Shown here: positions 32,718 through 54,908 of the stretch, piece after piece
How positions within the stretch are numbered: the first letter of the stretch is position 1
Layout: every line of letters begins with the position of its first letter
Assembly (NCBI GenBank): GCA_965249725.1
Contig: CBDFMQ010000002.1
Coordinates: forward strand, 608,001 to 672,000
Direction of reading: 5' to 3'
Length of the DNA: 64,000 nucleotides
DNA from: Longimicrobiales bacterium
Lineage (GTDB): Bacteria; Gemmatimonadota; Gemmatimonadetes; Longimicrobiales; Gaopeijiaceae
Position numbers and translations under genes: made by a program
Notes under the pieces: model-generated
The model's input: only the letters and a program-made list of their open reading frames with translations
The model's database searches: none
What the model was told of the DNA's origin: nothing

Positions 32718-32978
32718 CGAGCGCTCCCGCCTTTGTTCTGGTTAGAGTTTAGCGCACTAATCTACCACTCGAATCGGTTGGGTGGTACGGGGCGGACGCA
32801 CCATAATTGGCGGTTCTTTTCTCCTCGACGCGGACAAGGAATCAGAGGCGATCCCACCGGTTTCGACGGCCCGAATCCAGGGCCTGAATCGACGCCGAGT
32901 CACGACGGTCTCGGGCATGGATTCGCCCGACGTCTTCCGTCAGAGTTATGGACAATCGCCCAATCCCGGAGAACCTCG

Positions 32979-34034
32979 ATCCTCGCACACGTCCGCTCGG
33001 CTTCCGTACAGGGGGTCGAGAGTTACTCGGTCTCCGTCGAAGTGAATCTGTCCGTGGGGCTGCCCGCGTTCGTCGTCGTCGGGCTCCCACAGGGTGCGGT
33101 CCGTGAGGGACGGGAGCGCGTTACCGCCGCGCTCCACAATGTGGGGCACGCCCTTCCTCCCCGTCGCATCACGGTGAATCTCGCTCCTGCGGATGTGCCC
33201 AAGGAGGGAAGCGCCTTCGATCTACCCATCGCTGTGGGCCTTCTCATCGGAATGGGCGTCATCCCTCAGGATGGAGTAGACGGTCTCTGTCTGGTTGGGG
33301 AGCTCGGCCTGGGTGGACGTCTGAGGGCCGTGCGCGGAGCGCTCCCGATCTCCGCCGGCTGCAAGGAACGGGGTGACGGTGCGCTGATTCTGCCACGGGC
33401 GAACGCGAGAGAGGCAGCCGGAGTCGGGGACCTGGAGGTCTTCGGGGCCGACGACTTGCGCTCGGTCGTAGACCACCTCGTCGGAGGTCGGAGCATCGTG
33501 CCCACCACGGTGGACTCCGGTCGGCTCCTCCGTGACCCTCCACCGATGGCCTCTGACCTCTCAGAGGTACAAGGACAGGAGTTCGCGAAGAGGGCCCTCG
33601 AGATCGCGGCCGCGGGCGGACACAACCTGCTGCTGTTGGGACCTCCGGGGTCGGGGAAGACGATGTTGGCGCGACGGATGCCGGGAATTCTGCCTCCCCT
33701 CACGGTCGCCGAGTCCATCGAGGTGACCAAGATCCACTCGGTCGCGGGGCTGGTTCCCGAAGGGGGATCATTGTTGGTGGGGCGGCCCTTTCGGGCTCCT
33801 CATCACACGGTGAGTGACGCCGGGCTGGTGGGAGGAGGGGCGGTCCCGAGGCCCGGTGAGATCAGCTTGGTGCACCAAGGAGTCCTGTTCCTGGACGAGC
33901 TCCCCGAGTACCGCAGGCATGTACTCGAGGCGTTGCGTCAGCCGTTGGAGGATGGGGTGGTGACCCATGCGAGAGCCCGTTCGGCCCTCCGATACCCTGC
34001 GCGATTCATGTTGGCCGGAGCGATGAACCCGTGT
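32979..34034 (+). pseudogene. comM: comM/YifB Mg-chelatase-like helicase, 5' part interrupted at attL
   Basis: [49 protein letters not shown]; ends ...AMNPC then homology is lost; apparent start ATC 32979 behind GGAG. Confidence 0.93.
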
Positions 34035-35541
34035 TCCCGCGTTGCCTTGTTGCCACTGTTTGAGGGGAAGAGAGGGAGGGGTTGGGTTCAGTTTCGAGTG
34101 GAAGGTAGGCGAGTTCGATCGTAACCTCGTCTGTACCGATCACGATGGCCTGTACAAGGTTTTCGACGATCTGACGCTTCTCGTCGAACCCGAGTTCACC
34201 CCACCGGCTGTATAGGTTCCGTGCTTCCGACAGGATCTCATCGGAGGAAAGGAATTGAATGCGAAGGAAGTCGACCTCTCCCTGGAGCCTTGGGATTTCC
34301 TCATCCAGCTGTTGGAGGCGCTCATCGAGAGGTCGGTAGAGGGTGCCGAAAGAGTCGACCGTCAGTTCGTCGTTGACATAGGCTCGGTAGATCTTGTCTC
34401 GCTGGGTGTCTACCGTTTGGCGCTCTCGCTCCATTCCTTCAAGAAGCTCTTGTCGTTCCTTGAGGACCCCATCGGCCTGTTCGAGATAGGTGGACATCTG
34501 CTCCGGTGAGAGGAAGAAGCCCTTGAGTTGCTCTTCGAAGACAGCTTCCAGATCAACGATGGGGATCTTGTTGCGACAGCCTGAACAGACGTACTTCGGC
34601 GTGTTGGACGGCACGTACATCTTCCGTCCACAATGGCACCGCGTCACACCGGCAAAGAGCTGCCTGGGCTTCCTGCCACGCTTCTTTCTCGATCGACGCT
34701 GGTCCTGGATGATCGCATTGACCTGGTCCCAGAGTTCTTCAGACACGATGGCGTCAACGGCATGCCACACCCATTCGCTCTCGGGCTTCTTCTTCCACGC
34801 CTGCCCCTCGCCGAGGCTCTTGGTGTAGTTGGCTCGCCTCCAACCCTTGGCCGTGGGGTCCTGGAGGAGCCTATCCACGGTCGTATCGGAGAACCGAGCA
34901 CCCTTGCGGGTTCGGTGACCCAAATCGTTGAGCAATCGTGCGACCGTCTTCTTGCGCTTGTGCTCCAGATAGAGCTCGTACATGAGCCGCCGGACCGGCG
35001 CTTCGTCTGGGTCGGGTACGAGTTTGGCGTCGTCCCAACGGTACCCGAATGGGGCGGCACCCCCCAAGGGCTTGCCCATCTTGGCTCGGACGACAACGGA
35101 GGCAGCGACGCGGTCCGCGATTTCCTCCCGTTCCCATTGGGCCATGGCGGCGATCATCGTATAGAAAAGGCGCCCGGCCGGAGAGCTGGTATCGATGGCC
35201 TCTTGGAGGGAGACGAGATCAGCGTCGTGTTCCCGGAAGTAGTCGGCGAAGTCCAGAAGCTCTCGGGTGTTCCGCGCGAGCCGCGCCAACTTGGAGAAAA
35301 TGAGGCCGGTGATTCGTCCCTTTCGGACATCCTCCATCATGCGCTTGGCTTCCGGATGGGCCATGACGGACTTCCCGGACACGGCTTCCAGGTGGTAGAC
35401 CTCGTGCACCTTCCAGTCCTTAGCCTCGGCGTACATATGGGCGCGACGTTCGTGGTGCTCAGGACTGTCTCCGTGAGCTTGGTCTTCGGTGGAGACCCGG
35501 ATCCAAACCCCGACGGACTTCGGTGCTTCCCGCTGCGTCAT
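34006..35541 (-). CDS. Large serine recombinase (resolvase + recombinase + Zn-ribbon + coiled coil); reads across attL
   Basis: WIRVST catalytic Ser, [24 protein letters not shown]...CSGC, C-terminal [14 protein letters not shown]. Confidence 0.95.
34031..34055. other. attL junction: GTGT core (34031-34034) plus 21-bp element arm
   Basis: ccc GTGT tcccgcgttgccttgttgcca; the arm is the inverted complement (20/21) of 54884-54904. Confidence 0.9.
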
Positions 35542-35703
35542 GAGATTTCCCAGCTACGCATGGGGGATGTGGTGTGTATTCGGCTAATATTCGGTCACGA
35601 TCGTTTGTGGTCAAGCGAGGACGAAAAGCTCACGCGGGTAGAGGATAGTTGCGCCCGCAAAACTGAGGCGCGTTCGTATCGGTCCGATCGGCAGAGACGG
35701 TGA

Positions 35704-36319
35704 GGTACTGTCAACTTGAGGCCGGTCCCTGCAGACTCCGCGGATGAAGACGAATTCAAGTAGCTATCGCGGCCACCGGTTTCCGACTGAGATCATCGGC
35801 CACGGCGTGTGGCTGTACTATAGGTTCTCCATGAGTCTGCGCGACGTTGAGGAACTCCTGGCGAAGCGGGGCATCACCGTCACCCATGAGACCATCCGGC
35901 AGTGGTGTATGAAGTTCGGTCCCAAGTACGCGCGAAGACTCAAGCACCGCCAGGGCAGGCTCGGCGATATCTGGCACCTGGACGAAGTCTTCGTGAAGAT
36001 CGGGGGCGAGCGTCACTATCTATGGCGGGCCGTGGATAAAGATGGGGATGTGCTCGATATCTTGGTTCAGCGATACCGCAACGCTCGCGCGGCCAAACGA
36101 TTCTTCCGCAAACTACTGAAGGGGCAGGGAAGCCAGCCGTGGCAGCTGGTGACCGATAAGCTGAAGAGCTACGGCGCCGCGCACCGAACCATCATGCCCT
36201 CCGTAGATCACAACACGGAACGCTACGCGAACAATCTGGCTGAAGTCTCGCATCAGCCGACGGGACAGCGAGAGCGTCAGATGCGAGCTACTTCCCGATA
36301 CCGTCGAGCTAATTTCTAA
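35704..36319 (+). mobile_element. Truncated IS6-family element: left IR (ggtactgtcaacttgag) and transposase 35744-36319 lacking its normal C terminus
   Basis: YRGHRFP.EII, WHLDEVFVKI, YLWRAVD, VTDKL.SY, NNLAEVSH; homology appears to end after QRERQMR (~36286); no right IR found. Confidence 0.85.
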
Positions 36320-36459
36320 TACTTAGGAATTGGTCGTGCCTCGATGGAGAAAGCCGGAGCGCCGCGCGAACGAAACGGACATAGACTCGCGTACGCCTAC
36401 CGAAAATTCGGTGCCCGTGACCTGCTGGAAGAGGAGGTACGCGGATGGGTGGATCGAGG

Positions 36460-38877
36460 ATGGACGTGAAGGTCGCGGCCCGCACGCTCGTGAGGTCGCC
36501 GGCCTTCGCCGGCTTCGCAGTCGCGACACTGGCGCTCAGCGTCGGAGCGGCTACGCTGCTCTTCTCGGTCGTGAATGGCGTACTGCTCAGCCCGCTGCCG
36601 TACGAGAGTCCAGACGAACTCGTCGCAATCTACCTCACGAACGACGAGTGGCGTGAGAGCAAGAACGAGCTCCTTCGGCGCAACTGGGACACCTACACCA
36701 TGTCGCTCGGTCACATCGAGGCCTTCCGGCAGACGCCCGGGCCCATCGTTGGCGTAGCGGGTTACGCGGGCCGGGTGATGCCGCTCGACAGCGGGGACGG
36801 CGAGGAGGAAACCGCCGAGACGGTGCTCGTGGATGGCGAGATCTTCTCGGTTCTGGGGGTCGTTCCGTCCCTGGGGCGGCTCCCCAGCCCGGACGAGATT
36901 CGCGAAGGGGCCCCGGTCGCCGTGCTGCGCGACAACACCTGGGCCGACCGCTTCCGGCGCGACCCTGACGTGCTGGGCCGCACGTTCGGCCTCGGAGACC
37001 GCACGTACACGGTCATCGGCGTGATGCCGCCGGGCTTCTTCCTGCCGTCCGAGGACGCGTCGGACCTGTGGGTGCCCGTGACGGAAGGAGAGCGACGGTG
37101 GCCCTCGTTCTCCGGGGTTGCACGCCTGGCGCCCGGCGCAACCATCGCGGAGGCGAGCGGCTTTTTCGAGCAGGTCGCACGCCGCGTCGGCGAGGAGGAC
37201 CCCGAGCGCTCCGGGCTCGGCGGGCGTGCGATCTCGCACCTCGAGAAGGTCGTCGGCGGGGTCAGCGGTGGCATCCGACTCCTCTTTGGCACCACGCTCC
37301 TCGTCGTTCTTGTCGCTTGCGTGACTCTCGGCAACCTCTTTTTGGCACGTGCCTCGGGCCGGCGCCAAGAGTTGGCGGTGCGCGCGTCGCTCGGCGCCGG
37401 GATGTGGTCGCTCACCTCTACGGTGCTGGCCGAGTTGCTCTTGATCAGCCTCGTGGGCGGCGGTCTCGGCGTCGCGCTAGCCGCATCCGGCGTCGATCCG
37501 TTCGTCGCGGCCCTCCGCACTTCCCTCAGGCGGCTGCCCCGCCAGGGTGCGATCGGCCTGGACGGATCAGTACTCGTATTCTCACTCGCCGCGACGCTAA
37601 CCGTAGCGCTCGTGGCCGGATTGGTCTCGACGCTCGCTTCGCGAAGGTGGACAACCGCGAATGCCATCACCGACGTGCGCCGATCGGGTGGGAGTGACGC
37701 CACAAGGATCGGGCAGCGGCTGGTGCTTGTCGTGCAGGGCGGCATGACCGTCGTTCTCGTCTCAGCGGCCGCCCTGCTGGGCCGTAGCTTCTTGGCCGCC
37801 ATGTCCGTCGACATCGGGATGAGGACCGAGAGGGTGGCCGTTCTGCGGGTCGACTCGGACCGCGAGACCTACCAAGAGCCTGAGGCGCTCGCGAGGGTCC
37901 AGGAAGCGATCCGCGCCGCTGTGGGGGCCCTTCCCAATGTGACCGCGGCGACTACCGTCTGGTCCCTGCCAGGTACGGGGGGCGTGCTCTTGCGCCCGGT
38001 CCGGCGGGAGGACACCGAGCCGGACGCCGCCGTGCAGGTTACCGCGGTTCCCGCCGGCGAGGGCTACTTCGCCACGATGGGAATCCCCCTCCTCGCCGGT
38101 CGTGGCTTTCGCGCTGGCGACGGCGCTGGCGACCGTCGCAAGACGGTGGTGAGCGAGAGCCTTGCCACCGAGCTCTTCGGCACGCCCGACGTGGTGGGAC
38201 GACGCTTCGTTCAGAGTACCGGTGACGAGCTGAGCACCCTGGAGATCGTCGGAGTGGCCGCCGAGACGCGACAGTTCTCGGTCTTGGCGCAGCCGACCCC
38301 GACGGTTTACGAGCCGATGGAGGGCACGGGCTCGCACAGCTTCTACGTGACGATGGCCGTCGACGGAGACCCGACGACCGTGCTCGGCGCCGCACGGGAG
38401 CGCGCCCTCGCCGTCGACGGGACGCTGGAGATCAACCAGGCATCGACCTTCGATGCGATGCTCCGCGACAGTGTCAGGCACATTCGGTTGCGGATGATTC
38501 TCATGACCTCGCTGGCAGTGCTGGCCGGCGTCCTGGCGATGATCGGCATCTCCGGCGTGGTCGCGCACTTCCTCTCGGAGCAGACGAGGGAGGTCGGCAT
38601 CCGGATGGCGCTCGGCGCTACGCCGCACCGTGAGATCGGTCGGGTCGTGCTCCACGCGTTCCTGCCGACGGCCATGGGTGTGGCTATGGGTGCGGCCGTC
38701 GCAGTGAGTGTGTCCGGCGTAATGGAGGGCTTCGTCTTCGGTGTCGAGCCGAGCGACCCCGTCACTTACCTCGCGGTCGCGATTGTGCTCCTCGCGACGG
38801 CGGCGGTGGCTGCCTTGATCCCAGCGAGCCGCGCGGCCACCGTGGACCCGGCGCGTGTGCTGAACCACGAGGACTAA
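36460..38877 (+). CDS. Duplicated MacB/FtsX permease (ADOP-like)
   Basis: D...A.R.L.RSP.F, VIGVMPPGF, ELAVRASLGA, REVGIRMALGA, PASRAATVDP. Confidence 0.88.
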   Translation: MDVKVAARTLVRSPAFAGFAVATLALSVGAATLLFSVVNGVLLSPLPYESPDELVAIYLTNDEWRESKNELLRRNWDTYTMSLGHIEAFRQTPGPIVGVAGYAGRVMPLDSGDGEEETAETVLVDGEIFSVLGVVPSLGRLPSPDEIREGAPVAVLRDNTWADRFRRDPDVLGRTFGLGDRTYTVIGVMPPGFFLPSEDASDLWVPVTEGERRWPSFSGVARLAPGATIAEASGFFEQVARRVGEEDPERSGLGGRAISHLEKVVGGVSGGIRLLFGTTLLVVLVACVTLGNLFLARASGRRQELAVRASLGAGMWSLTSTVLAELLLISLVGGGLGVALAASGVDPFVAALRTSLRRLPRQGAIGLDGSVLVFSLAATLTVALVAGLVSTLASRRWTTANAITDVRRSGGSDATRIGQRLVLVVQGGMTVVLVSAAALLGRSFLAAMSVDIGMRTERVAVLRVDSDRETYQEPEALARVQEAIRAAVGALPNVTAATTVWSLPGTGGVLLRPVRREDTEPDAAVQVTAVPAGEGYFATMGIPLLAGRGFRAGDGAGDRRKTVVSESLATELFGTPDVVGRRFVQSTGDELSTLEIVGVAAETRQFSVLAQPTPTVYEPMEGTGSHSFYVTMAVDGDPTTVLGAARERALAVDGTLEINQASTFDAMLRDSVRHIRLRMILMTSLAVLAGVLAMIGISGVVAHFLSEQTREVGIRMALGATPHREIGRVVLHAFLPTAMGVAMGAAVAVSVSGVMEGFVFGVEPSDPVTYLAVAIVLLATAAVAALIPASRAATVDPARVLNHED

Positions 38878-39059
38878 GAGGCGCAGCCGGGCGAGCTCTC
38901 TCCTTCAAGCGGATCGGGGGCGCGACCGACGGCCGGCCGGGGGATGCTGCCCCTCACCCGGCTCGTGCGTCCCCCTGCGGGACCCGCCTACGATTGCCGC
39001 AGGATGGGCGACGCCGGGCCCCTCGACACCCAGACCTACTTGCCGGAACGAGGCGCTCC

Positions 39060-39250
39060 AGTGCCACTACCGGATCGAGAGAGGGTGTGTGCGGGGCGGG
39101 ATGGAGACGCGTATATCTCGCGGAGGATCTTCGCCACGGAGGCGAGCTCGCGCTCAAGGTGTCCGATTCCGGAGTCCGCGCGTTGGCTGACTCGGGCCGT
39201 TTGTTTTGCAGGAGATCAAGATTGTCGCGGGCATCACGCATCCGCCTGGG
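39060..39250 (+). pseudogene. Degenerate N-terminal fragment of a Ser/Thr protein kinase
   Basis: Across frameshifts: HYRIER..RGGM, VYLAEDLRHGGELALKV, FLQEIKIVAGITHP. Confidence 0.65.
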
Positions 39251-39777
39251 CCGTACCGTCGCTATTCGAAAAAAGTAGGCGCATCTTCGTCGAGGCGAGG
39301 CGCTGGAGTGCCGGTGCTAATACCGCAAGCGACGGGTGTTTCCTTTCTTCCGCAGGTGAAGAGGGTGTAGATTGCGGACAACCACAGCATCTTGCACCTC
39401 TGTGTCATTGAGAGCGTCACGGCCACAGACGGCGGCGATCGATTGCCTTAGCTCATTGTACACGGTTGCACCAAATGCACTTCACCGGGGTGTGAAGCGG
39501 ATGAGATTCCAGTATCCTGCTCGACGAGGCAGAGCAGGATATCGGATCGTAGGATGCATCGGCTCAGCAAGAACCTCGCCGTGAAACACAACTGGTTGCG
39601 AGGGTTTGAGTCTTGCGATCCGAGGTTCACCGGTTCTTCGACTAAATGACGATTTCCCCCATTACGCGCTAGCTCAATCCACCGGTGTACCCTTCGCGAG
39701 GGCCCAGCTCCCTGATGGGTCGGGGCGCGTTTTTTTTGTTCCGTGCCGGACGGTGCAGGGTCACAGGAGTTGCTCAC

Positions 39778-42390: not shown

Positions 42391-42466
42391 CTTCGCCAGC
42401 CGCGCCAGCTTCCGCACTTGCACTGCGGCGGCCTCGACCTCTACCCACACAAGCTCTGATAGAGCC
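42320..42466 (+). mobile_element. ISL3-family remnant (transposase C-terminal scrap plus right end)
   Basis: EGINSKIQW..., HCGGLDLYP, terminal cacacaagctctgatagagcc; possible degenerate left end ggctccatgaga at 42320. Confidence 0.65.
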
Positions 42467-42479
42467 CCAGAATGGCACC

Positions 42480-43256
42480 TCAGTATTTGGGACGCAGCGC
42501 CCTCGACATGAGTAAGCGGGCGACTCGGACGAGCGTGTTCCCAACCCTCATCGACGACGGGGTCGGTTTGCGATCGTAATGAAGGTGAAACGGAACTTCC
42601 GAGATACGGGCACCAGCATCGATGACACGCAGTAGCAACTCGACCGCGGCGGCAAAACCGGGTTCGGTCACAAGTCGACCGTCGCGGCTAACGGCGGCGA
42701 TCCGTCGGAGCACGGACGCGTCGTAGGCACGAAGATTCGATGACAGGTCGGTCGTTACTCGCCCGAGGAGACGACTCACAACGCCGTTAGCCATACGGCT
42801 GACTGTGCGACGCGAAAGGGGAACTCCGACTTGCCTCGAGCCGGGAACATAGCGGGATGCCAATACGACGTCCGAAGCACCCCGCACGATGGGTTCTATC
42901 ATGGTCGGAATCAGACCGACATCGTGCGTGTCATCAGCATCCATCGTGACGATGATGTCCGCCGTTTCCAGGGCTTTCGACAAACCATCGTTCAATGCTA
43001 CGCCGAATCCGCTATTGACGTCGTGCGTCAAGCCACTTACGCGGTCGCCACGATGTTGTACTATGACGTCCGCCGTGCGGTCCGTGGACCCGTCATCGAC
43101 AACCAAGACCGAGAATTCGTACGAGGCCAATCCCGGCGCCACTCGGATCCGGTGGAAGATTCTTGCTAGTCCGTCCGCTTCGTTGTAGGCCGGAAGGACG
43201 AGCACCACGCGGGGGCTATAGCTCCCACGCTGCTGAGGGTCCAAAGCTTGTTCCAT
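42480..43256 (-). CDS. GT2 glycosyltransferase (polyprenol-phosphate sugar synthase-like)
   Basis: LPAYNEA, VDDGSTDRT, MDADDTH, SRYVPG. Confidence 0.88.
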   Translation of the reverse strand: MEQALDPQQRGSYSPRVVLVLPAYNEADGLARIFHRIRVAPGLASYEFSVLVVDDGSTDRTADVIVQHRGDRVSGLTHDVNSGFGVALNDGLSKALETADIIVTMDADDTHDVGLIPTMIEPIVRGASDVVLASRYVPGSRQVGVPLSRRTVSRMANGVVSRLLGRVTTDLSSNLRAYDASVLRRIAAVSRDGRLVTEPGFAAAVELLLRVIDAGARISEVPFHLHYDRKPTPSSMRVGNTLVRVARLLMSRALRPKY

Positions 43257-44471: not shown

Positions 44472-44724
44472 CGGGTGTCCTATTGGGTGCGATGCTCGGC
44501 TCTTCGGTTGGGGGTAGGGTTGTGTTTGTCCGCGAATAGGGCCGTTGTCGGATAGGTCACGTCATCTTTGAGGCGGGTCACCCTTCCGGGGTGGCCCGCT
44601 GCTCTCCTGTCGATCGATGGCCACGGGAACGCTCGTATCACACTGTCCCATTGGCGTCACCGGTCCGCACGCGGATGACCTGGTGCCTAACTAGGGTCGG
44701 GCAACAAAGCCATCCCCGGGGACG

Positions 44725-45192
44725 CTATTTCGTGGCCGTGACCTCTTCCGCAGGATCTGGCAACTGTTTCGCGTACTGATGTACTCCAAAGCCCGCCACG
44801 AAGAACGATAGCCACCAGAGGAAATACCCGGGTTGCAGGTTCTCTACATCAACACTCCCTTCAAGCCCGAGCACCCAATGGGCATTGAGGACGCCCGCCA
44901 GCATGCACGCCTGTCCCGCCTGAGCGATCTCCACCCGTGAACGAGTTGTCAGCACGAGGGGCAGGATCAGCACGAACACATTCGTGATGACGCTCGCGAC
45001 GAAGAGTGCGCCGACGAGCCCACCACCCTCGAAATCGACGCCTTCGTCGGGCCAGATGGGAATTAAGGCTGCGCGCACGGCCTCAAGGCCCGGAATAGCA
45101 TCGGGAAGATGGCCAAGAGCGACGTGCACCGGGACGAACCAAGCGATCACGTACATGAGTACGGCTCCGAGCACGACGTTGAGTGATTTCAT
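44725..45192 (-). CDS. Hypothetical membrane protein
   Basis: GGAGG RBS, four hydrophobic segments, PGYFLWW. Confidence 0.7.
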   Translation of the reverse strand: MKSLNVVLGAVLMYVIAWFVPVHVALGHLPDAIPGLEAVRAALIPIWPDEGVDFEGGGLVGALFVASVITNVFVLILPLVLTTRSRVEIAQAGQACMLAGVLNAHWVLGLEGSVDVENLQPGYFLWWLSFFVAGFGVHQYAKQLPDPAEEVTATK

Positions 45193-45304
45193 AAGGCCTC
45201 CCTTTCAAATGGTCTGAGCTGTGCTGACAACTCTTCTGGCATCATCTCCGGGCGTCGGACTCCGCAAGTGTGAACCTACGGAGCGGGAGGGCACCGACGC
45301 CCGG

Positions 45305-48300: not shown

Positions 48301-48409
48301 AATCGACAAGTTGACGCTCCGCTGGCGAGAGCGGGGCCGCTGCCGCGGTCGTGTCGTCCACCTGACGGCTACTTTCCGAGGAATTCTCGAAGGATCGGCT
48401 TGCGCTCAA
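45305..48409 (-). CDS. VirD4/TraD(TrwB)-like P-loop ATPase with long N-terminal region and C-terminal restriction-endonuclease-like domain
   Basis: RLRHMHVLGATGTGKS, LDPHGDL, LYVDEFQHF, RKYGLGLTLAHQ; C-terminal HRYLQ..IK...G.VDV...VACEV; true start may be GTG 48361. Confidence 0.85.
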   Translation of the reverse strand: MSASRSFENSSESSRQVDDTTAAAAPLSPAERQLVDFYAWERRGRGWWVWPHAVEIEPPFRPFPPEFSNAPTLTDDAHKPTLVSKLVASLVRKEREPDSGITDDGPSEGEEPWPDLDATHPDLTEFSVSLPPDLKVSGAVAGQVLASLPAHLDVVSFELIGTSKAITVQWATRREDAGVVERQLLAHFPEIALEESSEALRQAWGEAKIGTSLLVDFGLSNEFLFPLDTGTSFQTDPLVGIVGAMEGLRGQEVAVLQVLFRRVRHPWSGNMLRGAELLEGSEPKSLARAKASEPLFAAVIRVAARSEDEDRTWDIVRSVGGALGPLARTGSNELIPLSNADYPDDEHELDLLERTTHRSGMILNLGELVALVHLPSPVVRSESLRRERRTTREAPTLTQGPGLVLGENDHRGRTATVHLPSGHRLRHMHVLGATGTGKSHFLLSLILQDIENGEGVGVLDPHGDLIDRILERIPEERHGDVVLLDPADEDFPIAFNILSAHSELERNLLASDLVAAFRRLATSWGDQMTSVLRNAVLAFLESDEGGTLADLRRFLVEPGFRTAFLQTVRDEEVVYFWQREFPLLSGRPQGPLLTRLDSFLAPKPLRRMVSQRESRLDFAEIMDQGQIFLARLSQGAIGEENAHLLGSLLAAKFQQLAAARQAQAEADRRSFFLYVDEFQHFATPSMTQILGGARKYGLGLTLAHQDLAQLDQAGTGLASAVLSNPATRVCFRVGDSDARKLSEGFASFEAKDLSGLGRGEAICRVERSDWDFNLRTLPLLELEPSVGMDRVQRIVALSRARYGTPRDVVEEALRRGRTSAPGPPTAPESPPEAPEIPKEAPAPRRASRPVLAATKLAEPQPLGRGGAQHRYLQELIKRWAGSRGWHVTVEQPILDGLGRVDVSLERSEQRVACEVAVKSTPDQEVGNVQKCLAAGFDAVAVVSPERKVLGRAQAAVEAAVEEESLSRIEFLTPEELFVFLEALEAHGAGGEETIRGWKVKTRFQSLEEGDKSTRTQAIAKVILGATKRLRGKDA

Positions 48410-49034
48410 ACTCCGACATCAACGGGAGTCCTCCGTCCCGAGTCAGATCATCCACCACTTCATTGACGGCTGCCTGGACAGAACTCTGGAACATCAGCGT
48501 GGTGTCGATGCGGTAGTACGTTTCGGGGCTGAACCAGCGCTGATAGAGAGTCCCGAGAAGCGGCATCGCCACCAGGGCATCGTCCCAGCCCGCGACTTGG
48601 GAAGCCACGTAATTAGCGAAGAGCCAGAGGCACAGAGGCACCAAGAATGGGAGCAGGACCAGTGCTAGGAGGACTCCAACCACCTTCGTCATCACCAGGG
48701 TGAGGATGAGGGTTCCGAGGGTCAGCGCGGCAAGCGCCAAGGGGCCATATGGAGACTGGAGCCGCCCCAGCCACCAGGAGACGAAGAAGCCGTTTCCATA
48801 AGGGGCTCCGCAGACGTCGAAGACGAGACGACCTCGCTCGATGCGGAGGTACTCCCGCTTGGCTGAAAGCACTCCACCCTCGTGCCAATCAACCCGGGAG
48901 CGTGACGTCTCTGGGAGTTCACGCCTCTCAACGGCCTGCTCGACAGAGTCGTAGAACCCGAGTGGCGAGGCACTGAGGCCTTCGAAGAGCCGGTACCAGT
49001 GGGAAAGGACGGTGGGAGCGGCGCTGCCAGGCAT
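48369..49034 (-). CDS. Hypothetical two-TM membrane protein between the two ATPases
   Basis: AGGA RBS, central hydrophobic hairpin, tightly coupled to the downstream ATPase. Confidence 0.75.
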   Translation of the reverse strand: MPGSAAPTVLSHWYRLFEGLSASPLGFYDSVEQAVERRELPETSRSRVDWHEGGVLSAKREYLRIERGRLVFDVCGAPYGNGFFVSWWLGRLQSPYGPLALAALTLGTLILTLVMTKVVGVLLALVLLPFLVPLCLWLFANYVASQVAGWDDALVAMPLLGTLYQRWFSPETYYRIDTTLMFQSSVQAAVNEVVDDLTRDGGLPLMSEFERKPILREFLGK

Positions 49035-49195
49035 AGTCGGTTCCTTTCCTAATGGAACGTGGCCTGGGGGGTGCTATCTCAACTTGCGCACAAGGTACGT
49101 TGGGGCAGGGCATAGGCGCCAGGAAATTGACGTTGGAGTTGGTCGTGTCACCGCCGTCCGAGTGGACGACGCGGCCAACTCTAGACCGTTATGAG

Positions 49196-50377
49196 TCAGC
49201 GTAAGGAGTCGATCGAGACGGCCGAGAACGGTCGTGACACCTCACCCTCAACAAGAAGTCTGAGGTACATCTCATACCTCGGTAGCCCGATCAGGTCGTC
49301 GGACGAGAACACGGGGGCGAATTCTCGGGCGAGGGAGATCGCGTCCTGACCGCCGACTCGGAAGGACGCCAGGGTGCCCGTGTTGCCGAACACGGCGTCG
49401 CGGATCCCGGGCTCTAACTGACTCAGATGTTGATGGGCGAGAACCATGCCAATTTTGTACTTACGAAGTTCAGACAGCATGTTGGCGAGGGATTGCGTCG
49501 TGAACGTCTGGAATTCGTCGAGGTAGACCCAGAAGTCTGAGCGATCTTCCTCAGGCTGGTCGCCTCGCGAGAGCCCTGCGAGGGCGATGTGGGATAGAAG
49601 GAAGGAACCCAGAATCGTGGCAGGTCCCTCTCCGATCCGGCCTTTGTCCAGGTTAACCAAGAGTATCTTGCCTGAATCCATCAGACGGCGGAGATCCAGC
49701 ATCCTCCCCTGGTCAACTAGAATGCGGCGGAGCAGGGGGTCCACCAGTAGCCCGCCCACCTTGTTCTGGAGGGGCGCGATTACGACGGCCCGGAAGGCTG
49801 GTGAGTACCGGTCGAACTCATCGATCCAGAACCGCCGAACGACATCGTTCTCCAAATCGGCCACCAGATTCTTCCGGTAGTCCCGATCCGTCAAGAGTGC
49901 GGGGATGTCGCCCAAAGTGCCTCCCGGTGCCTCCAAGAGCGTGTAGACGACATTGCGAAGTAAGTGCTCTAGGCGAGGACCCCAGTCGTCGGGCCAGATT
50001 TTCCGGAAACTCTCGACCAGGCCTGCGGCAGCCAGTGGCCGATTCTCCGGCGAGATGCCGGCAAACGGGTTGAAATGCCACTCGAGCCTACGGTCCGGGA
50101 CATCGAGGTAGATGAGATCAGCGTGTCTCTCAGGAGGTATCTGCTCACGGACACTGGCGACTAGGTCTCCGTGGGGATCGAAGAGCGCGAATCCCCCCCC
50201 GGCGGCGGCATCCTGGGCGGCCATGACCCGGAGGAGTGTGGATTTTCCCGTGCCGGTCTTGCCTACCAGGTAGAAATGGGAACGCCTGTCTGCTTGGCGG
50301 ATGCCAAAGAGGGTGCCTGCGTTTCGATGACTGGTTCGGGCGAAGAAAGTGATGCGGCTGTCTGGGGTGGATGACAT
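49196..50377 (-). CDS. Second VirD4/TraD-like ATPase (stand-alone NTPase domain)
   Basis: FGIRQADRRSHFYLVGKTGTGKS, FDPHGDL, VYLDEFQTF, LSELRKY...LAHQ, RPFSA. Confidence 0.87.
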   Translation of the reverse strand: MSSTPDSRITFFARTSHRNAGTLFGIRQADRRSHFYLVGKTGTGKSTLLRVMAAQDAAAGGGFALFDPHGDLVASVREQIPPERHADLIYLDVPDRRLEWHFNPFAGISPENRPLAAAGLVESFRKIWPDDWGPRLEHLLRNVVYTLLEAPGGTLGDIPALLTDRDYRKNLVADLENDVVRRFWIDEFDRYSPAFRAVVIAPLQNKVGGLLVDPLLRRILVDQGRMLDLRRLMDSGKILLVNLDKGRIGEGPATILGSFLLSHIALAGLSRGDQPEEDRSDFWVYLDEFQTFTTQSLANMLSELRKYKIGMVLAHQHLSQLEPGIRDAVFGNTGTLASFRVGGQDAISLAREFAPVFSSDDLIGLPRYEMYLRLLVEGEVSRPFSAVSIDSLR

Positions 50378-50495
50378 GGAGTCATCGTGCCTGAGACGGC
50401 CGTCTCCTGAAAGAGGTATGATCCTGCCCATCAGTCACTTCTGGCTCGCGCCCGAGGTTCGGTATGCGAGAAGCTAAGTACCCTGCGGACACGAA

Positions 50496-51566
50496 TCAGG
50501 GGCGAGTAGTAGACCTCAGTTCGGTTACTACACCGGTATTGATGTCGATCTCGACCAGATCAGATCCCGAAAAGCCGAACAGCCTGTCTCCCTTGAACAT
50601 CAGATCCTCGACCTGTGGCAAGGTGCTCAGCGTTGCGGGCGTCAATGCAAATGTGGTCGGGTTCATGGTCATGAGGCTGATCGGAGATCCGGCGTCCGAA
50701 TGGCTTTCTTTCGTAGTGACATAGATCGAGCCCGCCGGGGACCGGGCTGCCCCAAGAAGGAAATCGCTGAAGTATTGATACACCCGCTGTGTGCCCGATC
50801 CAGGCGTGTAGCGATATAGGTCGGTGAAGCCAGCAAAAGTGGTCACAAGCAAGAGTGACCCGGTCGGCTCGCAAAGGGTACTCGTCACATTGGCCGGTCC
50901 GATATCGATCTCTTCTTGAGAGGTGGCAATAGCGGTTGGAGGGTCTACCCGCCACAGAATATCGCCGTGGTACACATTCGAGTTCTCTGTCGCCCAGACG
51001 TCGCCCGTCTCGCATTCGGTCATCGCTGCTAGCAGGGGCCAATTGGACCTTCGCGCGCTCCCTCCACTTAAGTCTGCAGAGGCCACATGGACGATTCCGA
51101 CACGGAGATCCATTCCGCTCCTTGCTGTGTCGACCATCGCGATCGTCGTGGTGGTTATTGGTGTTAGAAGCGTATCGTATCCAAGGGCGAGAATTGAGCC
51201 GGGAATACGCGTCGGGGTCGTGGACACGATATCGACGGAACCGTGAATTCCAGTGACGGTCTCCGTTGCGGTGATCGTCGCTTGACCTGGTGACCTCGCC
51301 TCAATCAATCCACTGGCTGAAACGCCGACCAACATTGAAGCGGTGGATTGCCAACGAAACAGCTTGCCCGTGATTGTCTTGCCTCTGGCATCTCTTGCTA
51401 TGGCGGTGAGAGAGATCGCCTCGCCAACTTGCACGGTCGTCTTAGGTGCTAGGGCTTCGACGTCCGCAACTCCAGCAAGCTCAAACGGAATTGTCGGAGT
51501 TCCATCGTCGCCCCCACAAGCGAGACCGATGAGAAGAATCGAGAGAATGATGGTAGCCCTTTTCAT
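50496..51566 (-). CDS. Lipoprotein with Ig-like (Big_2-type) domain and propeller-like repeats
   Basis: GGAGG RBS, lipobox GLAC, VGEAISLTA..RDARG...WQS...VSASGLI....PGQATITA. Confidence 0.75.
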   Translation of the reverse strand: MKRATIILSILLIGLACGGDDGTPTIPFELAGVADVEALAPKTTVQVGEAISLTAIARDARGKTITGKLFRWQSTASMLVGVSASGLIEARSPGQATITATETVTGIHGSVDIVSTTPTRIPGSILALGYDTLLTPITTTTIAMVDTARSGMDLRVGIVHVASADLSGGSARRSNWPLLAAMTECETGDVWATENSNVYHGDILWRVDPPTAIATSQEEIDIGPANVTSTLCEPTGSLLLVTTFAGFTDLYRYTPGSGTQRVYQYFSDFLLGAARSPAGSIYVTTKESHSDAGSPISLMTMNPTTFALTPATLSTLPQVEDLMFKGDRLFGFSGSDLVEIDINTGVVTELRSTTRP

Positions 51567-51612
51567 GGTCCCTCCAGGAGAACGTCGCGGGGTTGCAGAG
51601 AATTGGGTCGGG

Positions 51613-52098
51613 TCACATCCCCACTTGAATCGAGACCTTGGCCTGAAATCCCTCGACGTTGGGTTCTATGGCGAGGTTCAGTCGCTGGCGAAGCTCTTCA
51701 TTGTGGCGCCTCGCGTAGTCCATTGCCGAGACCACTCCCCACACCCTTCCCCCGAGATACGCCAGGACCCCTCCGATGATGAGAGCGTCATTGCCATCCT
51801 GAATGCAGGAGCCGAGAAACTGCTGCCTACATCCGACTGAGGTCCCGGCGATTGCGAGCACGAGACCTCCAACGCTCACCACCGTTGGCTTCAGGCCGAC
51901 CTTCGCATCATCCACGTAGGCGTGGCCGACAATGGGGATGGCCATTTCGAGCATGATGGCGGCGAGCTCGTCCTTTTTTTCGGCATTGTACCGGGATAGG
52001 GCGTCAGAGCTACCGGTCACCTGACCCACGACGGGGCTTACTGGCAGCAGGGTTGTGGTGGAGAGAACGAGCAACAGGAGTGTGAGTGATCCACGCAT
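51613..52098 (-). CDS. Exported hypothetical protein
   Basis: GGAGG RBS, signal peptide, P.VGHAY motif and hydrophobic helices. Confidence 0.7.
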   Translation of the reverse strand: MRGSLTLLLLVLSTTTLLPVSPVVGQVTGSSDALSRYNAEKKDELAAIMLEMAIPIVGHAYVDDAKVGLKPTVVSVGGLVLAIAGTSVGCRQQFLGSCIQDGNDALIIGGVLAYLGGRVWGVVSAMDYARRHNEELRQRLNLAIEPNVEGFQAKVSIQVGM

Positions 52099-52251
52099 TT
52101 GGGGCCTCCGTGAAAAGAAGAGGGTGAGAGAGACCAGCTCAGGACACCGTCACCGACGCTGGCTCCTCCACGATGTGCCAATGTCCGTAGCGACAATAAT
52201 GCTACTTCTATGCTGTCGCAAGAATGACGCGCCGACCTCACGGTTGGCGCC

Positions 52252-52548
52252 ATGGCAAAGATCAAGAAGACTCACCTCAGGGTGTCAATCGGGCTTCGAC
52301 TGCGGGCTCTTCGTCAGGAAGCTGGGATAAGCTCACAGGAGGCCTTGGCGCACAGGGCCGGAGTTCACCGGACTTACATAGGACGGCTAGAGCGAGGGGA
52401 GAGCGGGGTGACGGTGGATTCCCTCGCGGCTATTCTCGCTGTGTTTCCGGTTAGCCTAGCGGAGTTCTTTCAACCGTTTAATGAAGCCGTGCGCCCAGCC
52501 ACACCGAGGAAGCGATCGCCAACGGTGCGCCGTACGCCAGATACATAG
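52252..52548 (+). CDS. XRE-family HTH transcriptional regulator
   Basis: IGLRLRALRQEAGISSQEALAHRAGVHRTYIGRLERGE. Confidence 0.88.
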   Translation: MAKIKKTHLRVSIGLRLRALRQEAGISSQEALAHRAGVHRTYIGRLERGESGVTVDSLAAILAVFPVSLAEFFQPFNEAVRPATPRKRSPTVRRTPDT

Positions 52549-52731
52549 ACTCCACAGGATTCGCGAGGAGGGGCGCGATCCCGTAATCACTGGCGAGCGG
52601 AGGAATCTATCGGTCCGGACTTATGGGTCACTTCGGCATTGCAGCGCGATTTGATGCCTACGCTATGAAGTGTGGCCGCTGCCCATCAGTATGGGATTCC
52701 ATGGTGGCCTGAAGTGTGGTACAGTTTGTCA

Positions 52732-53088
52732 ATGGCAATAACTCGATCTGTCTCAAGGCACATGGTTCACTTGGTCCTCGCGATAGCTTTGGTACTCATG
52801 TCGGTATTCGTTCCGGTGGTAGTTGAGACGCGACATGAGCTGTCGGAGGTCAGGTTGGGGTTGCCGTTGCGATTTCTCACGCAGGATCTATCCGTTCTCC
52901 CCTATGGGAGGGGTGGAGACGCGGATCCGCTTCCCATAGAGCGGGCGCTATTGAGTCCGTGGGAGTACCCCTTCAGGGTGTCTCCTTTGAGGTTGGTGCT
53001 GGATGTCTTCATGACCTACTTCGTTATTTCGTTTGTTGCAGACATCTTTCGTGTGGTTATGGGGAGTGGCTCATCGCTTAGGAAGTAG
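52732..53088 (+). CDS. Hypothetical membrane protein
   Basis: Hydrophobic N and C termini, GLPLRFL motif; start uncertain. Confidence 0.5.
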   Translation: MAITRSVSRHMVHLVLAIALVLMSVFVPVVVETRHELSEVRLGLPLRFLTQDLSVLPYGRGGDADPLPIERALLSPWEYPFRVSPLRLVLDVFMTYFVISFVADIFRVVMGSGSSLRK

Positions 53089-54093
53089 AATCGTCTCGAT
53101 GGGATTGCCCTGAGAGGAGGCTGATCTGCGAAGCCCTTGGGTGATTGTACTGATGGGTTCCACGCTGGCAGAGAGGGGGAGGCTACTGTTCTCAACGAAC
53201 AAGAGCATCATGTAGGCTCGGACCTCTTGTGTGCCGAGCGGAGGCACTCGAATCGGTATCTGGATCAGCTTGTCGAAGTAGCTGGTCACCAGATTCTCGT
53301 TCTCGATACCCTCAAAATGACGCCGGACAGCGTGTTTGATCATCGCGTCGTCCGCCGCGATCACGAAGGCCGTGTTTTCGAGGAACAGGAGGAGCCTGAT
53401 GGCTTCAAGCGTCGAGATCGTAGTGGGCGGCAGACAGCGGTCCAAGTCGTCAATTAGCACGACAAGCGTTACGCCCAGAGCCGAGAGGGCTTCCGTGAAG
53501 CTCTGCCGGATAGCATGAATCTCTTTGGGTGGAGAAGAGCCCTGACTCGGCTTGAGTAGGCCGGAAGCTTCGGCCACGACTTTACCGGCGGTTGTCTCTG
53601 CCGCCTCAAGATCCTCGGAGGCCACCTCCCCAGCGAGCGCAGTCTTGCCAAGGCGCACAGCTTCACCGACGAGTCCGATTGGGGGGAGTCCAAGCGCTAG
53701 GGCTAGAGTAGAGCCTGCTGTCAGCTTCGCTGCTCGGAGCCAGTCAACCCGCCTGATCAGCTCCTGGACCTTATCGAGCCCGGTCTGTTCCTCCTCAGCC
53801 CTTCGCTCCAGCTCCGAGGCGATAACTTCGAGGAGAGAGGCTCTGGCATCGTCGTATCCTTGGTACAGCCACGCATTGAACTCAACGAATACGAACTTCG
53901 AATCGTCATCGTCGTCGCGCCCTTTGAGCGCGTCCCTGATGAGCTTTATCATCGACGACTTTCCGACACCCCAGGCGCCAGACACCCCGATTGACATCGG
54001 CTTGCCCTGCGCCTGGACGATGATCTCCGCGACCGTGTCGGCAACGCCGGTGAAGTTTAGAAAATCGCGTGCTGTCTCATTGTCGTGCCACAC
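53071..54093 (-). pseudogene. qatA: 3'-truncated KAP-family P-loop NTPase, QatA-like
   Basis: AGGAGG + GTG, W.DNET..DFLNF.GVADTVAEII, GAWGVGKSS, FNAWLYQGYDDA, IDDLDRCLP, YFDKLIQIP; about 340 aa with a non-homologous-looking tail. Confidence 0.72.
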
Positions 54094-54474
54094 CGTCCGC
54101 CTCCTTTGAGCCTGCCCCAAAACCGGCCCGCACCTCGTTAGAGCTATCGAGACGCGTGATAAACAAGTTCAACGTTGTTATCTCCGACGTGCGTATAAGC
54201 CTCACGAGGCCGGGGACTTGCGAAGCGGTGCGGATAAGACGCTTATGGTGTGCCCTTGATCTCTCTGCACGTTCTACAATTGACCGGTCACGGACCTGCC
54301 TGCAAGGGGGGAGGGCAGGAAAGGTAAGCGTCGACCGGAAGGGCTTTGGATCCAGCCCAGCGGCGTCAATATGCCGGGAGAGCTCGCACCGCGCCACATC
54401 CCCGCGCTTCTCACTCGGCTAAGGAGTTGCATCAGGCTCCCCGACACTGAGCTGTTCCTGTACAGTCGGCGGCT

Positions 54475-54897
54475 CTAGTCGTCGAGGAGTTTCTTCAACC
54501 GCCCTTCATTCGTGGCGTTCGGTCGTTTCTGGCGGCTCTCCCAGGTTCGGACCGCGAGTTCGTCTACGCCGATGACGTCGGCCAGTTGCCGTTGGGTTAC
54601 CCCGTGCCTCCAGCGGTATGCCTTGAGCCGCTCCGGGAGCGAATCTCCACACTCCAGCGGTACGTATCCAAGAAATTCAGTGATCCCGGGCCCGTGCCGG
54701 AGGGCAGGGGCCACGAGATTCCGTTCCCAATTGCCAATCGTAGTTTTGTCGACTCCGAGCTGGGCACCCACCTCCCGTTGGAGCATGCCCATCTCTGTTC
54801 GCTTCCGTCTGATGTGGTCTCCGATTGTCTGAAGTTGGTTGGGATACCAGGGCGGAAGGGCTCTCGCCGCCCTGAGCGTGACATGGCAACAAGGCAA
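54475..54897 (-). CDS. Tandem XRE-HTH ORF beginning inside the attR arm; in frame with the recombinase after excision
   Basis: IGDHIRRKRTEMGMLQREVGAQLGVDKTTIGNWERN and LKAYRWRHGVTQRQLADVIGVDELAVRTWES; only upstream start is a TTG within the att arm, no SD. Confidence 0.85.
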   Translation of the reverse strand: MPCCHVTLRAARALPPWYPNQLQTIGDHIRRKRTEMGMLQREVGAQLGVDKTTIGNWERNLVAPALRHGPGITEFLGYVPLECGDSLPERLKAYRWRHGVTQRQLADVIGVDELAVRTWESRQKRPNATNEGRLKKLLDD

Positions 54898-54908
54898 CGC
54901 AGGAGTGT
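54884..54908. other. attR junction: 21-bp element arm plus GTGT core (54905-54908)
   Basis: tggcaacaaggcaacgcagga GTGT ccgtgtggttgg. Confidence 0.9.

What the first reader, a model, noticed from the sequence alone, without database searches (positions are those of the whole stretch)
34006..54908. Recombinase that rewrites its own gene: excision fuses the serine recombinase in frame to a tandem-HTH domain at the other end of the element
Seen in sequence: the recombinase ORF (minus strand) runs through attL as ...[16 protein letters not shown] and stops inside antisense comM, giving 511 aa. Joining the ends at the GTGT core gives minus-strand ...cgc ggg aac ac|t cct gcg ttg cct tgt tgc cat..., which reads RGN-TPALPCCHVTLRAARALPPWYPNQLQTIGDHIRRKR.... 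That is exactly the frame of the double XRE-HTH ORF 54475-54897, so the circle encodes a predicted 646-aa recombinase-HTH-HTH protein. In the integrated state the HTH ORF has only a TTG inside the att arm and no SD, so it looks like a severed C-terminal domain. Established analogies: attP inside the repressor gene of some mycobacteriophages (integration-dependent immunity), and engineered integrase-RDF fusions. Inference: this is a built-in state switch in which the circular and integrated forms make different enzymes, controlling directionality, autorepression or target engagement. I am not aware of a described natural system of this form, but cannot check the literature here. A chance in-frame join has roughly a 1-in-3 prior, so conservation is the key test.
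Basis: partly seen in the sequence, partly recalled or inferred. Interest (0 to 1): 0.93.

Follow-up and report, generated by a model that had tools for sequence, protein, structure and literature searches.

The report
Integrase gene split by own integration
A 20.9-kb mobile element sits inside the competence gene comM, and its serine integrase gene spans the element's own recombination site, so the free circle encodes a long integrase with a DNA-binding tail while the inserted copy encodes a shorter one; related elements in many phyla keep this arrangement.

Summary
A 20.9-kb element interrupts comM. Its 511-aa large serine recombinase (LSR) ORF runs through attL. Joining the element ends in a script gives one 646-aa ORF ending in a tandem XRE-HTH domain (HTH2). 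Contigs from three other studies carry the empty site, cut at exactly these bases.

Conservation test: rebuilt attP is in frame and stop-free in 32 of 36 junctions; the other two frames are open in 7 of 36 each. Two reading phases over the same palindrome exist, and the LSR tail and the HTH always share one. The third phase occurs only in broken copies. Natural contiguous LSR-HTH2 genes exist: 6 of 7 attP-form loci and P0055. A second LSR family, 25% identical, carries HTH2 as an uninterrupted C-terminal domain even when inserted in comM.

Against: one clade has a stop before the arm yet keeps HTH2 under purifying selection. tRNA-targeting relatives lack HTH2.

What HTH2 does is untested. Closest precedents are tyrosine integrases (Mx8 IntP, SSV type). 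I found no paper on a serine case. This scan noted the arrangement earlier on other DNA.

The parts
32733..34034 (+). comM 5' fragment (ChlI and Mg-chelatase AAA+ domains), cut after the first Cys codon of the NPCPCG motif
   Evidence: Pfam PF01078 1.7e-72 and PF13541 3.3e-38; sequence; empty-site contigs continue from this sequence into 54905 onward
34031..34034 (.). attL core GTGT; the inferred crossover dinucleotide is TG at 34032-34033 (CA on the recombinase strand)
   Evidence: The same 4 bases occur at both ends. CA sits at this position in all 42 attL junctions and all 36 attR junctions examined
34035..34055 (.). P arm of attP (element left end); it encodes the last element-derived residues of the recombinase
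   Evidence: Inverted repeat I6, 21 nt, 95% complementary to 54884-54904
34006..35541 (-). Large serine recombinase ORF, integrated form, 511 aa. Residues 1-503 are element-encoded, residue 504 spans the crossover, and 505-511 plus the stop come from antisense comM
   Evidence: Pfam Resolvase 1.1e-32 and Recombinase 1.7e-19; translation; 5635 relatives
35586..35614 (-). Promoter-like site upstream of the recombinase start (a consensus match only)
   Evidence: TTGACC-17-AATATT, 9 of 12; the same stretch is similar in the closest relative L002
35744..54120 (.). Element body. It holds an IS240-type DDE fragment, a MacB/FtsX permease, a YfhO-like membrane protein, a GT2 glycosyltransferase, two TrwB/TraG-like coupling ATPases, a Big_2 protein and a KAP NTPase
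   Evidence: Pfam scan of 15 ORFs in this stretch, among the 19 ORFs scanned
54475..54897 (-). Tandem XRE-type HTH ORF (HTH2), 140 aa from a TTG inside the P' arm. In the circle it is the C-terminal 140 residues of the 646-aa fusion
   Evidence: PF01381 with 2 stretches and PF13560; model pLDDT 94.4; each half resembles P22 c2, 434 and SinR HTH domains
54884..54904 (.). P' arm of attP (element right end); it encodes the N-terminal residues of the HTH2 ORF
   Evidence: Inverted repeat I6
54905..54908 (.). attR core GTGT
   Evidence: contigs of X4, X5 and X8 align from 54905 with 0 differences, and before that they carry the sequence of 34001-34030
54906..55385 (+). comM 3' fragment
   Evidence: Translation frame; PF13335 3.5e-33; rebuilt comM is open for 592 aa

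Best explanation
attP of this comM-targeting element lies in the flexible linker of a composite gene: large serine recombinase, then linker, then tandem XRE-HTH domain (HTH2).

In the free circle the int promoter drives one 646-aa Int-HTH2 protein. Recombination with comM at the TG/CA dinucleotide cuts the gene between residues 503 and 504. The inserted element therefore makes a 511-aa recombinase. That protein keeps all catalytic and site-binding domains but lacks HTH2 and ends in 7 host-encoded residues. HTH2 is left at the far end of the element, 20.9 kb away, without its promoter and with only an arm-encoded TTG. Excision restores both the fusion gene and comM.

Shown: the anatomy, the precise insertion, conservation of the joint frame, natural full-length fusions, and an uninterrupted LSR-HTH2 architecture in a second family.

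Inferred: the fusion is translated and selected. HTH2 is a repressor-type DNA-binding module that works with the recombinase, or on element promoters, specifically in the free state. Integration itself would then switch the enzyme and its regulation. Which reaction it changes (integration efficiency, directionality, autoregulation) is not known.
For: (1) Window: joining the ends gives a 646-aa ORF, and the arms are palindromic.

(2) Insertion is precise. Contigs of runs X4, X5 and X8 (three other studies) hold the empty site with 0 differences.

(3) Rebuilt attP: 32 of 36 junctions (33 other genomes plus the window) are in frame and stop-free. That is 16 of 20 where both ends lie on contigs of the same length, taken as one contig, and 16 of 16 paired by genome only. 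Frames +1 and +2 are open in 7 of 36 each.

(4) Phase of the LSR frame at the crossover in 49 loci. 30 are in phase A (6 linker lengths, 0 with stops). 16 are in phase B (12 linker lengths, 3 with stops). 3 are in the third phase, all with stops. The linker is Pro/Ser-rich and varies in length. The two phases read the same arm DNA as different peptides. So the open frame is being kept, not a particular tail peptide.

(5) The HTH frame follows the LSR phase in all 32 open junctions. Phase B appears in a main clade (SH-aLRT 97) and again in L040 and L037 inside phase-A clades. L040's junction is in frame.

(6) Natural contiguous genes exist: 6 of 7 attP-form genome loci, for example ORFs of 638, 645, 663 and 683 aa, and P0055 at 636 aa.

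(7) A second LSR family is 25% identical to the window's LSR. 22 of its 28 full-length loci have an ORF of 633-696 aa from the LSR N-terminus; these loci match LSR plus HTH2. In 6 of them the gene ends 61-2080 nt before the comM junction, so the fusion is intact in the inserted state.

(8) No Shine-Dalgarno-like signal precedes the arm TTG. The median is -3.2 kcal/mol in attR context and +0.7 in attP context, against -2.8 at random positions and -6.95 at LSR starts.

(9) The stretch between the arm and the first HTH is conserved as protein: an invariant Y-P and a G-D-H among 14 sequences.
Against: (1) Four related elements form one clade (L072, L073, L074, L080; SH-aLRT 100). They have stops in the LSR before the arm, yet their HTH2 ORFs are intact (165-168 aa), 60-66% identical, with dS saturated and the one computable pair at dN/dS 0.13. 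HTH2 therefore functions unfused there.

(2) L032 and L049 are also broken before the junction.

(3) An in-frame TTG lies in the arm in both phases (27 of 27 checked). Gene callers start stand-alone proteins there. Separate translation cannot be excluded.

(4) tRNA-targeting relatives have no HTH2: 0 of 3 genomes, with one weak partial hit in a fourth. A comM-targeting sub-branch of the second family crosses attP without any HTH. The recombinase does not need HTH2.

(5) The frame match descends from few events. The phase-B occurrences could be transfers of one tail-att-HTH module, so independent support is limited.

(6) There is no direct evidence for the fused transcript or protein.
Confidence: 0.7

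Rival explanations
1. Circle-specific expression, not covalent fusion, is what matters. HTH2 is the element's XRE/cI-type regulator. Excision places it behind the int promoter. It acts as a free protein made from the arm TTG or by reinitiation. The missing stop between the two ORFs is tolerated but has no function.
For: The stop-bearing clade keeps HTH2 under purifying selection. A TTG is in frame in both phases. Each half has a repressor-type HTH fold. No promoter-like site lies upstream of HTH2 in the inserted state.
Against: This reading does not explain why the LSR frame stays open and in phase through a variable low-complexity linker: 43 of 49 loci are open, and the third phase occurs only in broken copies. 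It does not explain the uninterrupted LSR-HTH2 genes of the second family. No Shine-Dalgarno-like signal precedes the TTG in attP context (median +0.7).
Confidence: 0.2
2. Historical accident. attP merely overlaps the 3' end of int and the 5' end of an unrelated neighbouring regulator gene. The in-frame join arose once by chance and is inherited.
For: The prior is 1 in 3. The arms are a fixed palindrome, so the spacing cannot drift. Other comM-targeting LSRs cross attP with no HTH behind it.
Against: The two phases covary. The linker carries many in-frame length variants. HTH2 is fused to an LSR only 25% identical in 22 of 28 full-length loci. The HTH2 leader is conserved as protein.
Confidence: 0.08
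3. Assembly or annotation artefact: a chimeric MAG contig or a mis-joined repeat.
For: The window comes from a metagenome-type assembly, and one run of the likely source sample holds the whole stretch.
Against: Empty-site contigs from three other studies break exactly at the core. The same junction structure occurs in 42 attL and 36 attR sites.
Confidence: 0.02

Closest known systems
Myxophage Mx8 integrase IntP/IntX (tyrosine integrase)
   Same: attP lies inside the integrase coding sequence near its 3' end. Integration creates a recombinant gene with a new 3' end and changed properties without destroying catalysis (PMC6070905, section 14, passage read; it cites Tojo 1996 and Magrini 1999, which I did not read).
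   Different: Mx8 Int is a tyrosine recombinase of a phage. The exchanged part is a C-terminal tail. Here it is a folded tandem-HTH domain that is parked as an ORF at the other end of the element.
SSV-type 'suicidal' integrases of archaeal viruses and plasmids (SSV1, pTN3, pT26-2)
   Same: The recombination site is carried inside the integrase ORF, and integration partitions the gene (PMC8371274, section 6, passage read; PMC7253208, abstract in the listing).
   Different: These are tyrosine recombinases, and the split yields two inactive pseudogenes. Here all recombinase domains stay in one piece. The review states that self-disrupting recombinases are found exclusively in archaea. The present family is mostly bacterial.
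Integration-dependent immunity of mycobacteriophages (attP inside the repressor gene)
   Same: Integration changes the protein made from a regulator gene that spans attP. This is recalled knowledge; no paper was read here.
   Different: In those phages the repressor is shortened at its C-terminus and the integrase is a separate tyrosine enzyme. Here the regulator-type domain is cut from the integrase itself.
Engineered serine integrase-RDF fusions
   Same: An accessory protein is covalently linked to the C-terminus of a serine integrase to set directionality (PMC5737554, title and abstract in the listing).
   Different: Those fusions are man-made. HTH2 is not shown to be an RDF. In the second family HTH2 stays fused in inserted elements, which a constitutive RDF fusion would not predict.
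LSR elements that target one widely conserved gene (Durrant et al., preprint 10.1101/2021.11.05.467528)
   Same: Diverse LSR clusters target one gene, annotated there as an ATP-dependent protease, which accounts for 12.4% of predicted site-specific integrases (passage read). That this gene is comM is my inference.
   Different: A search of the main text for 'helix-turn-helix' found no occurrence. The supplements are closed.

Membership tests
Large serine recombinase (serine integrase) | N-terminal resolvase-type catalytic domain with the catalytic serine | tested here: met
   PF00239 E 1.1e-32 over residues 13-157. R15, V16 and S17 are invariant in 16 sequences. That S17 is the nucleophile is recalled, not tested.
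Large serine recombinase (serine integrase) | Recombinase domain followed by a zinc ribbon with an embedded coiled coil | tested here: inconclusive
   PF07508 E 1.7e-19 is met. PF13408 zinc ribbon scores only E 0.0059, below its cut-off, although C302, C304, C319 and C322 are invariant. The coiled coil was not modelled.
Large serine recombinase (serine integrase) | Short att sites with inverted-repeat arms around a non-palindromic central dinucleotide; conservative insertion | tested here: met
   21-nt arms. CA/TG is conserved at 42 attL and 36 attR sites. Empty-site contigs exist.
Self-splitting ('suicidal', SSV-type) integrases | att site inside the integrase ORF | tested here: met
Self-splitting ('suicidal', SSV-type) integrases | Tyrosine recombinase fold (Phage_integr_3); the split gives inactive halves | tested here: not met
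   The enzyme is a serine recombinase. The conserved region up to residue 481 stays intact after integration.
XRE/cI-type HTH DNA-binding domains | Five-helix HTH_3 fold, here present twice | tested here: met
   PF01381 with 2 stretches. Eight helices, pLDDT 94.4. Best match is the P22 c2 repressor, TM 0.79 on the target over 59 columns, E 8.6e-3. DNA binding itself was not tested.
Recombination directionality factor | Binds the integrase and switches it to attL x attR | not testable with these tools
   No test made here bears on this feature. It needs recombination assays.
Integrative conjugative or mobilisable element | Integrase plus transfer functions (coupling protein, relaxase, mating pore) | tested here: inconclusive
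   Two TrwB/TraG-like ATPases were found (PF10412, 1.8e-14 and 8.4e-9). No relaxase family appeared among the 15 element-body ORFs scanned, and 6 of those 15 had no Pfam hit.

The most novel reading that the evidence does not exclude
A pan-phylum family of comM-targeting serine integrases uses the recombination event itself as a covalent switch of enzyme architecture. The free element makes Int-HTH2. HTH2 would act as an arm-type DNA-binding or regulatory domain that commits the enzyme to integration. The inserted element makes a bare Int. Directionality would then be partly written into the gene structure rather than left to a separate factor. This would be the first such case for serine recombinases.
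Probability: 0.35. Interest if true: 0.9.

Novelty: new variant of a known kind. Interest (0 to 1): 0.78.

Why it matters
Serine integrases are leading tools for inserting large DNA, and how their direction is controlled is an active question. A natural integrase whose domain make-up differs between the free and inserted states would be a new control principle to test and perhaps to copy.

It also bears on a published generalisation that recombinases disrupting their own gene occur only in archaea (PMC8371274, section 6).

For annotation, hundreds of 'recombinase' ORFs with odd host-derived tails, and of 'XRE regulators' starting at a TTG beside comM, would be two halves of one gene.

The family is also remarkable in itself. 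It shows 55-84% identity across very many phyla, including candidate-phyla-radiation and archaeal MAGs.

Tried and rejected
- Complex prediction of LSR (1-500) with HTH2 gave no verdict (best score 0.15, mark 0.32). It says nothing either way.
- No RNA holder was listed for the attR stretch, so expression could not be examined.
- Foldseek against PDB found no solved tandem-HTH equivalent, only single-HTH matches with E above 0.001.
- A k-mer search for a shared operator in the 220 nt upstream of 78 LSR genes found nothing. The top 8-mer occurs in 6 of 78, the same as in shuffles.
- The sigma-70 consensus scan found nothing upstream of HTH2. This is weak, because the promoter type of this organism is unknown.
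- Word-index protein searches for fusions found few: 1 protein and 3 proteins. The genome and metagenome loci were far more informative.
- The viral-contig scan gave 1 locus with a different tail, which was uninformative.
- For the second family's linker I looked for a palindrome. The best was 10 of 14, not convincing. The later finding that attL lies downstream of the whole gene explains this.
- Eight genomes gave no attR next to a comM 3' fragment and were not rebuilt: G008, G009, G014, G015, G018, G021, G022 and G037.
- G025 is flagged unpublished and was not fetched.
- Literature searches that found no description of a serine recombinase gene spanning attP.
Full report
**1. What is in the window**

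A minus-strand ORF at 34006-35541 encodes a 511-aa large serine recombinase (LSR). It matches Resolvase at E 1.1e-32 and Recombinase at E 1.7e-19, with a weak zinc-ribbon hit. Its last residues and its stop lie in the antisense of a comM 5' fragment (32733-34034; Mg_chelatase 1.7e-72).

About 20.9 kb away, a minus-strand ORF at 54475-54897 (140 aa, TTG start) holds two XRE-type HTH units. It abuts the comM 3' fragment (54906-55385).

The element ends are 21-nt inverted repeats, 95% complementary, beside a GTGT present at both junctions. Joining the ends in a script gives a single 646-aa ORF. Joining the comM pieces gives an open 592-aa frame.

**2. The insertion is real and precise**

Logan contigs of three runs from three other studies (X4, X5, X8) match 54905-55300 with no differences. 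Immediately before 54905 they carry the 30 bases that stand at 34001-34030 in the window. That is the empty comM site. One run of the probable source sample holds the occupied form.

**3. The element**

The body carries two TrwB/TraG-like coupling ATPases, a KAP NTPase, a MacB/FtsX permease, a YfhO-like protein, a GT2 glycosyltransferase and an IS240-type transposase fragment. No relaxase family was found among the ORFs scanned.

**4. The recombinase family**

5635 proteins matched at E up to 0.001 among the 8000 candidates scored. The best 120 are 63-84% identical.

In one genome per species, 557 stretches encode a relative. The best 80 come from very many phyla, including candidate-phyla-radiation and archaeal MAGs. 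The nearest are Gemmatimonadota MAGs.

Of these 80 loci:
- 46 have antisense comM directly after the LSR.
- 7 have the HTH ORF directly after it on the same strand, which is the unrecombined attP form.
- 27 have neither. Among those, by eye, 5 show comM-like tails at contig ends, 4 sit in tRNA genes, and one (L054) is attP-like with a decayed HTH.

**5. The conservation test**

I searched 44 of the 46 comM-inserted genomes for HTH2; L006 and L032 were left out because their flanks are short. 42 had a match at E up to 1e-5.

I fetched 40 regions and skipped the unpublished G025. I found 35 attR junctions in 33 genomes where HTH2 abuts the start of the comM 3' fragment. All 42 attL and all 36 attR junctions, window included, have CA at the same place on the recombinase strand.

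Joining each attL to the attR of the same genome gave 36 junctions:
- 32 are in frame and stop-free.
- 2 are in frame but with stops in the LSR tail.
- 2 are out of frame with stops.

The other 16 are paired by genome only (16 open). One of these, L055 with L088, joins ends of two different elements of one genome. Over the same stretch the other two frames are open in only 7 of 36 each.

**6. Why this is more than one inherited accident**

The arms are a fixed palindrome, so spacing alone cannot drift. Two further observations point to selection.

(a) Two reading phases exist over the same arm DNA. In phase A the LSR tail holds an R-Q-R motif and the HTH leader reads A-L-P-F-C-H. In phase B the same DNA reads as A-T-K in the tail and A-F-L-P-F in the leader. 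The HTH phase equals the LSR phase in all 32 open junctions.

On a quick tree, phase B forms a main clade (SH-aLRT 97). It recurs in L040 (sister to a phase-A locus, support 86) and in L037 (inside a 96-supported clade that is otherwise phase A). L040's joint is in frame. For L037 only an internal junction in the same genome could be seen, and it is phase B. Transfer of a whole tail-att-HTH module could also produce this pattern, so I count it as limited support.

(b) The distance from the last conserved LSR motif (Y-L-P, residue 481) to the crossover varies widely. It runs through a Pro/Ser/Thr-rich linker. Among 49 loci:
- 30 are in phase A, with 6 different lengths and none with a stop.
- 16 are in phase B, with 12 lengths and 3 with stops.
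- 3 are in the third phase, and every one of them has stops.

A tail with no role beyond the recombinase would be free to shift or to end. It does not.

**7. Natural full-length fusions**

Six of the 7 attP-form loci read through from LSR into HTH. Examples are ORFs of 638 aa (L017), 645 aa (L030), 663 aa (L020) and 683 aa (L062). In L043 and L057 the HTH part is cut short after its first unit. L049 is frameshifted. P0055 (636 aa, from a 4443-bp contig) is another fusion. Four of the 5 attP-form genomes tested also have an uninterrupted comM.

**8. A second family gives independent support**

P0122 and P0274 are LSRs only 25% identical to the window's enzyme. They end in a homologous HTH2 that is 42-45% identical.

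Of 80 metagenome loci of this family:
- 28 match over the full length.
- 11 stop matching near residue 522-534, with DNA continuing beyond.
- 41 are cut by contig ends or fall in neither class.

Of the 28, 22 have an ORF of 633-696 aa counted from the LSR N-terminus. In 6 of them the gene has its own stop 61-2080 nt before an attL junction with comM, at the same CA.

Here the fusion is a normal, uninterrupted gene in the inserted state. LSR-HTH2 is therefore a genuine protein architecture of comM-targeting integrases. In the window's family the att site has come to lie inside the interdomain linker.

**9. Evidence that limits the claim**

- A clade of four elements (L072, L073, L074, L080) has stops before the arm. 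It still keeps 165-168-aa HTH2 ORFs that are 60-66% identical, with saturated dS; one pair gives dN/dS 0.13. HTH2 can therefore work as a free protein.
- L032 is also broken before the junction.
- A TTG lies in frame in the arm in both phases (27 of 27), and gene callers start stand-alone proteins there.
- The tRNA-targeting clade has no HTH2: 0 of 3 genomes, plus one weak partial hit.
- A comM-targeting sub-branch of the second family crosses attP with no HTH behind it.
- The TTG has no Shine-Dalgarno-like pairing above background: median -3.2 kcal/mol against -2.8 at random positions, and +0.7 in attP context. Several of these phyla use such signals little, so this is a weak argument.

**10. 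What HTH2 is**

The model is confident (pLDDT 94.4) and has eight helices. The 24-residue leader scores about 80. Each half resembles the DNA-binding domains of the P22 c2 repressor, the 434 repressor and Cro, and SinR. No solved tandem equivalent was found.

The HTH2 family is large: 4864 representatives at E up to 0.001. It includes proteins with 3 to 10 repeats.

**11. Mechanism**

Shown: the gene is cut by integration and restored by excision, and the catalytic and site-binding parts stay whole.

Inferred: in the circle the int promoter drives Int-HTH2. In the chromosome HTH2 is cut off from that promoter. HTH2 is therefore a free-state-specific module, mostly delivered as a covalent domain.

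I favour a role as a DNA-binding accessory or regulatory domain of the free-form enzyme. A classical RDF seems unlikely, because the second family keeps the fusion while inserted. The actual effect needs assays.

**12. Comparison with what is known**

- For Mx8, attP lies inside int and integration gives the gene a new 3' end with altered properties (PMC6070905, section 14, passage read).
- SSV-type integrases carry att in their ORF and are split by integration (PMC8371274, section 6, passage read; PMC7253208, abstract in the listing). That review says such enzymes are exclusive to archaea.
- All of these are tyrosine recombinases.
- Searches found no paper describing a serine recombinase gene that spans attP.
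- The Durrant preprint notes a heavily targeted 'ATP-dependent protease' gene. It holds no occurrence of 'helix-turn-helix' in its main text, and its supplements are closed.
- This scan recorded the same arrangement earlier on other DNA. I reached the counts above independently.

**13. Verdict**

The fusion is very probably real and selected. Its function is open. It is a new variant, serine and domain-swapping, of a known kind of self-rewriting integrase gene.

Noticed in passing
L002-L081: The recombinase family is 55-84% identical across MAGs of very many phyla. These include Paceibacteria, Saccharibacteria, Thermoplasmatales and Thermococci bins. That is an unusually broad spread for one integrase-target pair.
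   Followed up: partly
L117:520-620; L098:1218-1300; L084:740-800; L099:1179-1240: Extra HTH2 copies occur that are not next to comM. L117 has an attP-like internal junction with a short remnant of a recombinase tail and no recombinase. L084 and L099 share a different upstream sequence. These look like recombinase-less cassettes or second insertion sites.
   Followed up: partly
L109:326-1193 and 6835-7642: One Lysobacteraceae MAG has two copies of the comM 3' fragment plus attR plus HTH2, about 6.5 kb apart.
   Followed up: no
L058, L066, L067, L077: A clade of the same recombinase family is inserted in tRNA genes; the recombinase tail reads through the antisense of the T-arm. It has no HTH2 in the genome.
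   Followed up: partly
L020:503-8709; L062:9980-17479: attP-form fusion genes lie on long contigs beside housekeeping genes (EF-G and EF-Tu in L020), while comM is intact elsewhere in 4 of 5 such genomes. How these copies are kept in the genome is unexplained.
   Followed up: partly
P0123, P0137, P0138: Some proteins are made of 3 to 10 tandem copies of the HTH2 unit, up to 1002 aa. P0123 starts with the same arm-encoded leader as the window's HTH2 ORF.
   Followed up: no
window 54875-54916: Short contigs in runs X1 and X4 match only the P' arm and core with 2-3 differences and then run into other comM sequences. Related elements therefore sit in other organisms of the same samples.
   Followed up: no
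P0009: This 621-aa relative carries an internal tandem duplication of roughly 115 residues that covers the end of the recombinase domain and the zinc ribbon.
   Followed up: no
window 35744-36319: An IS240-type DDE transposase ORF (191 aa, PF13610 4e-32) lies directly beside the recombinase promoter region inside the element.
   Followed up: no
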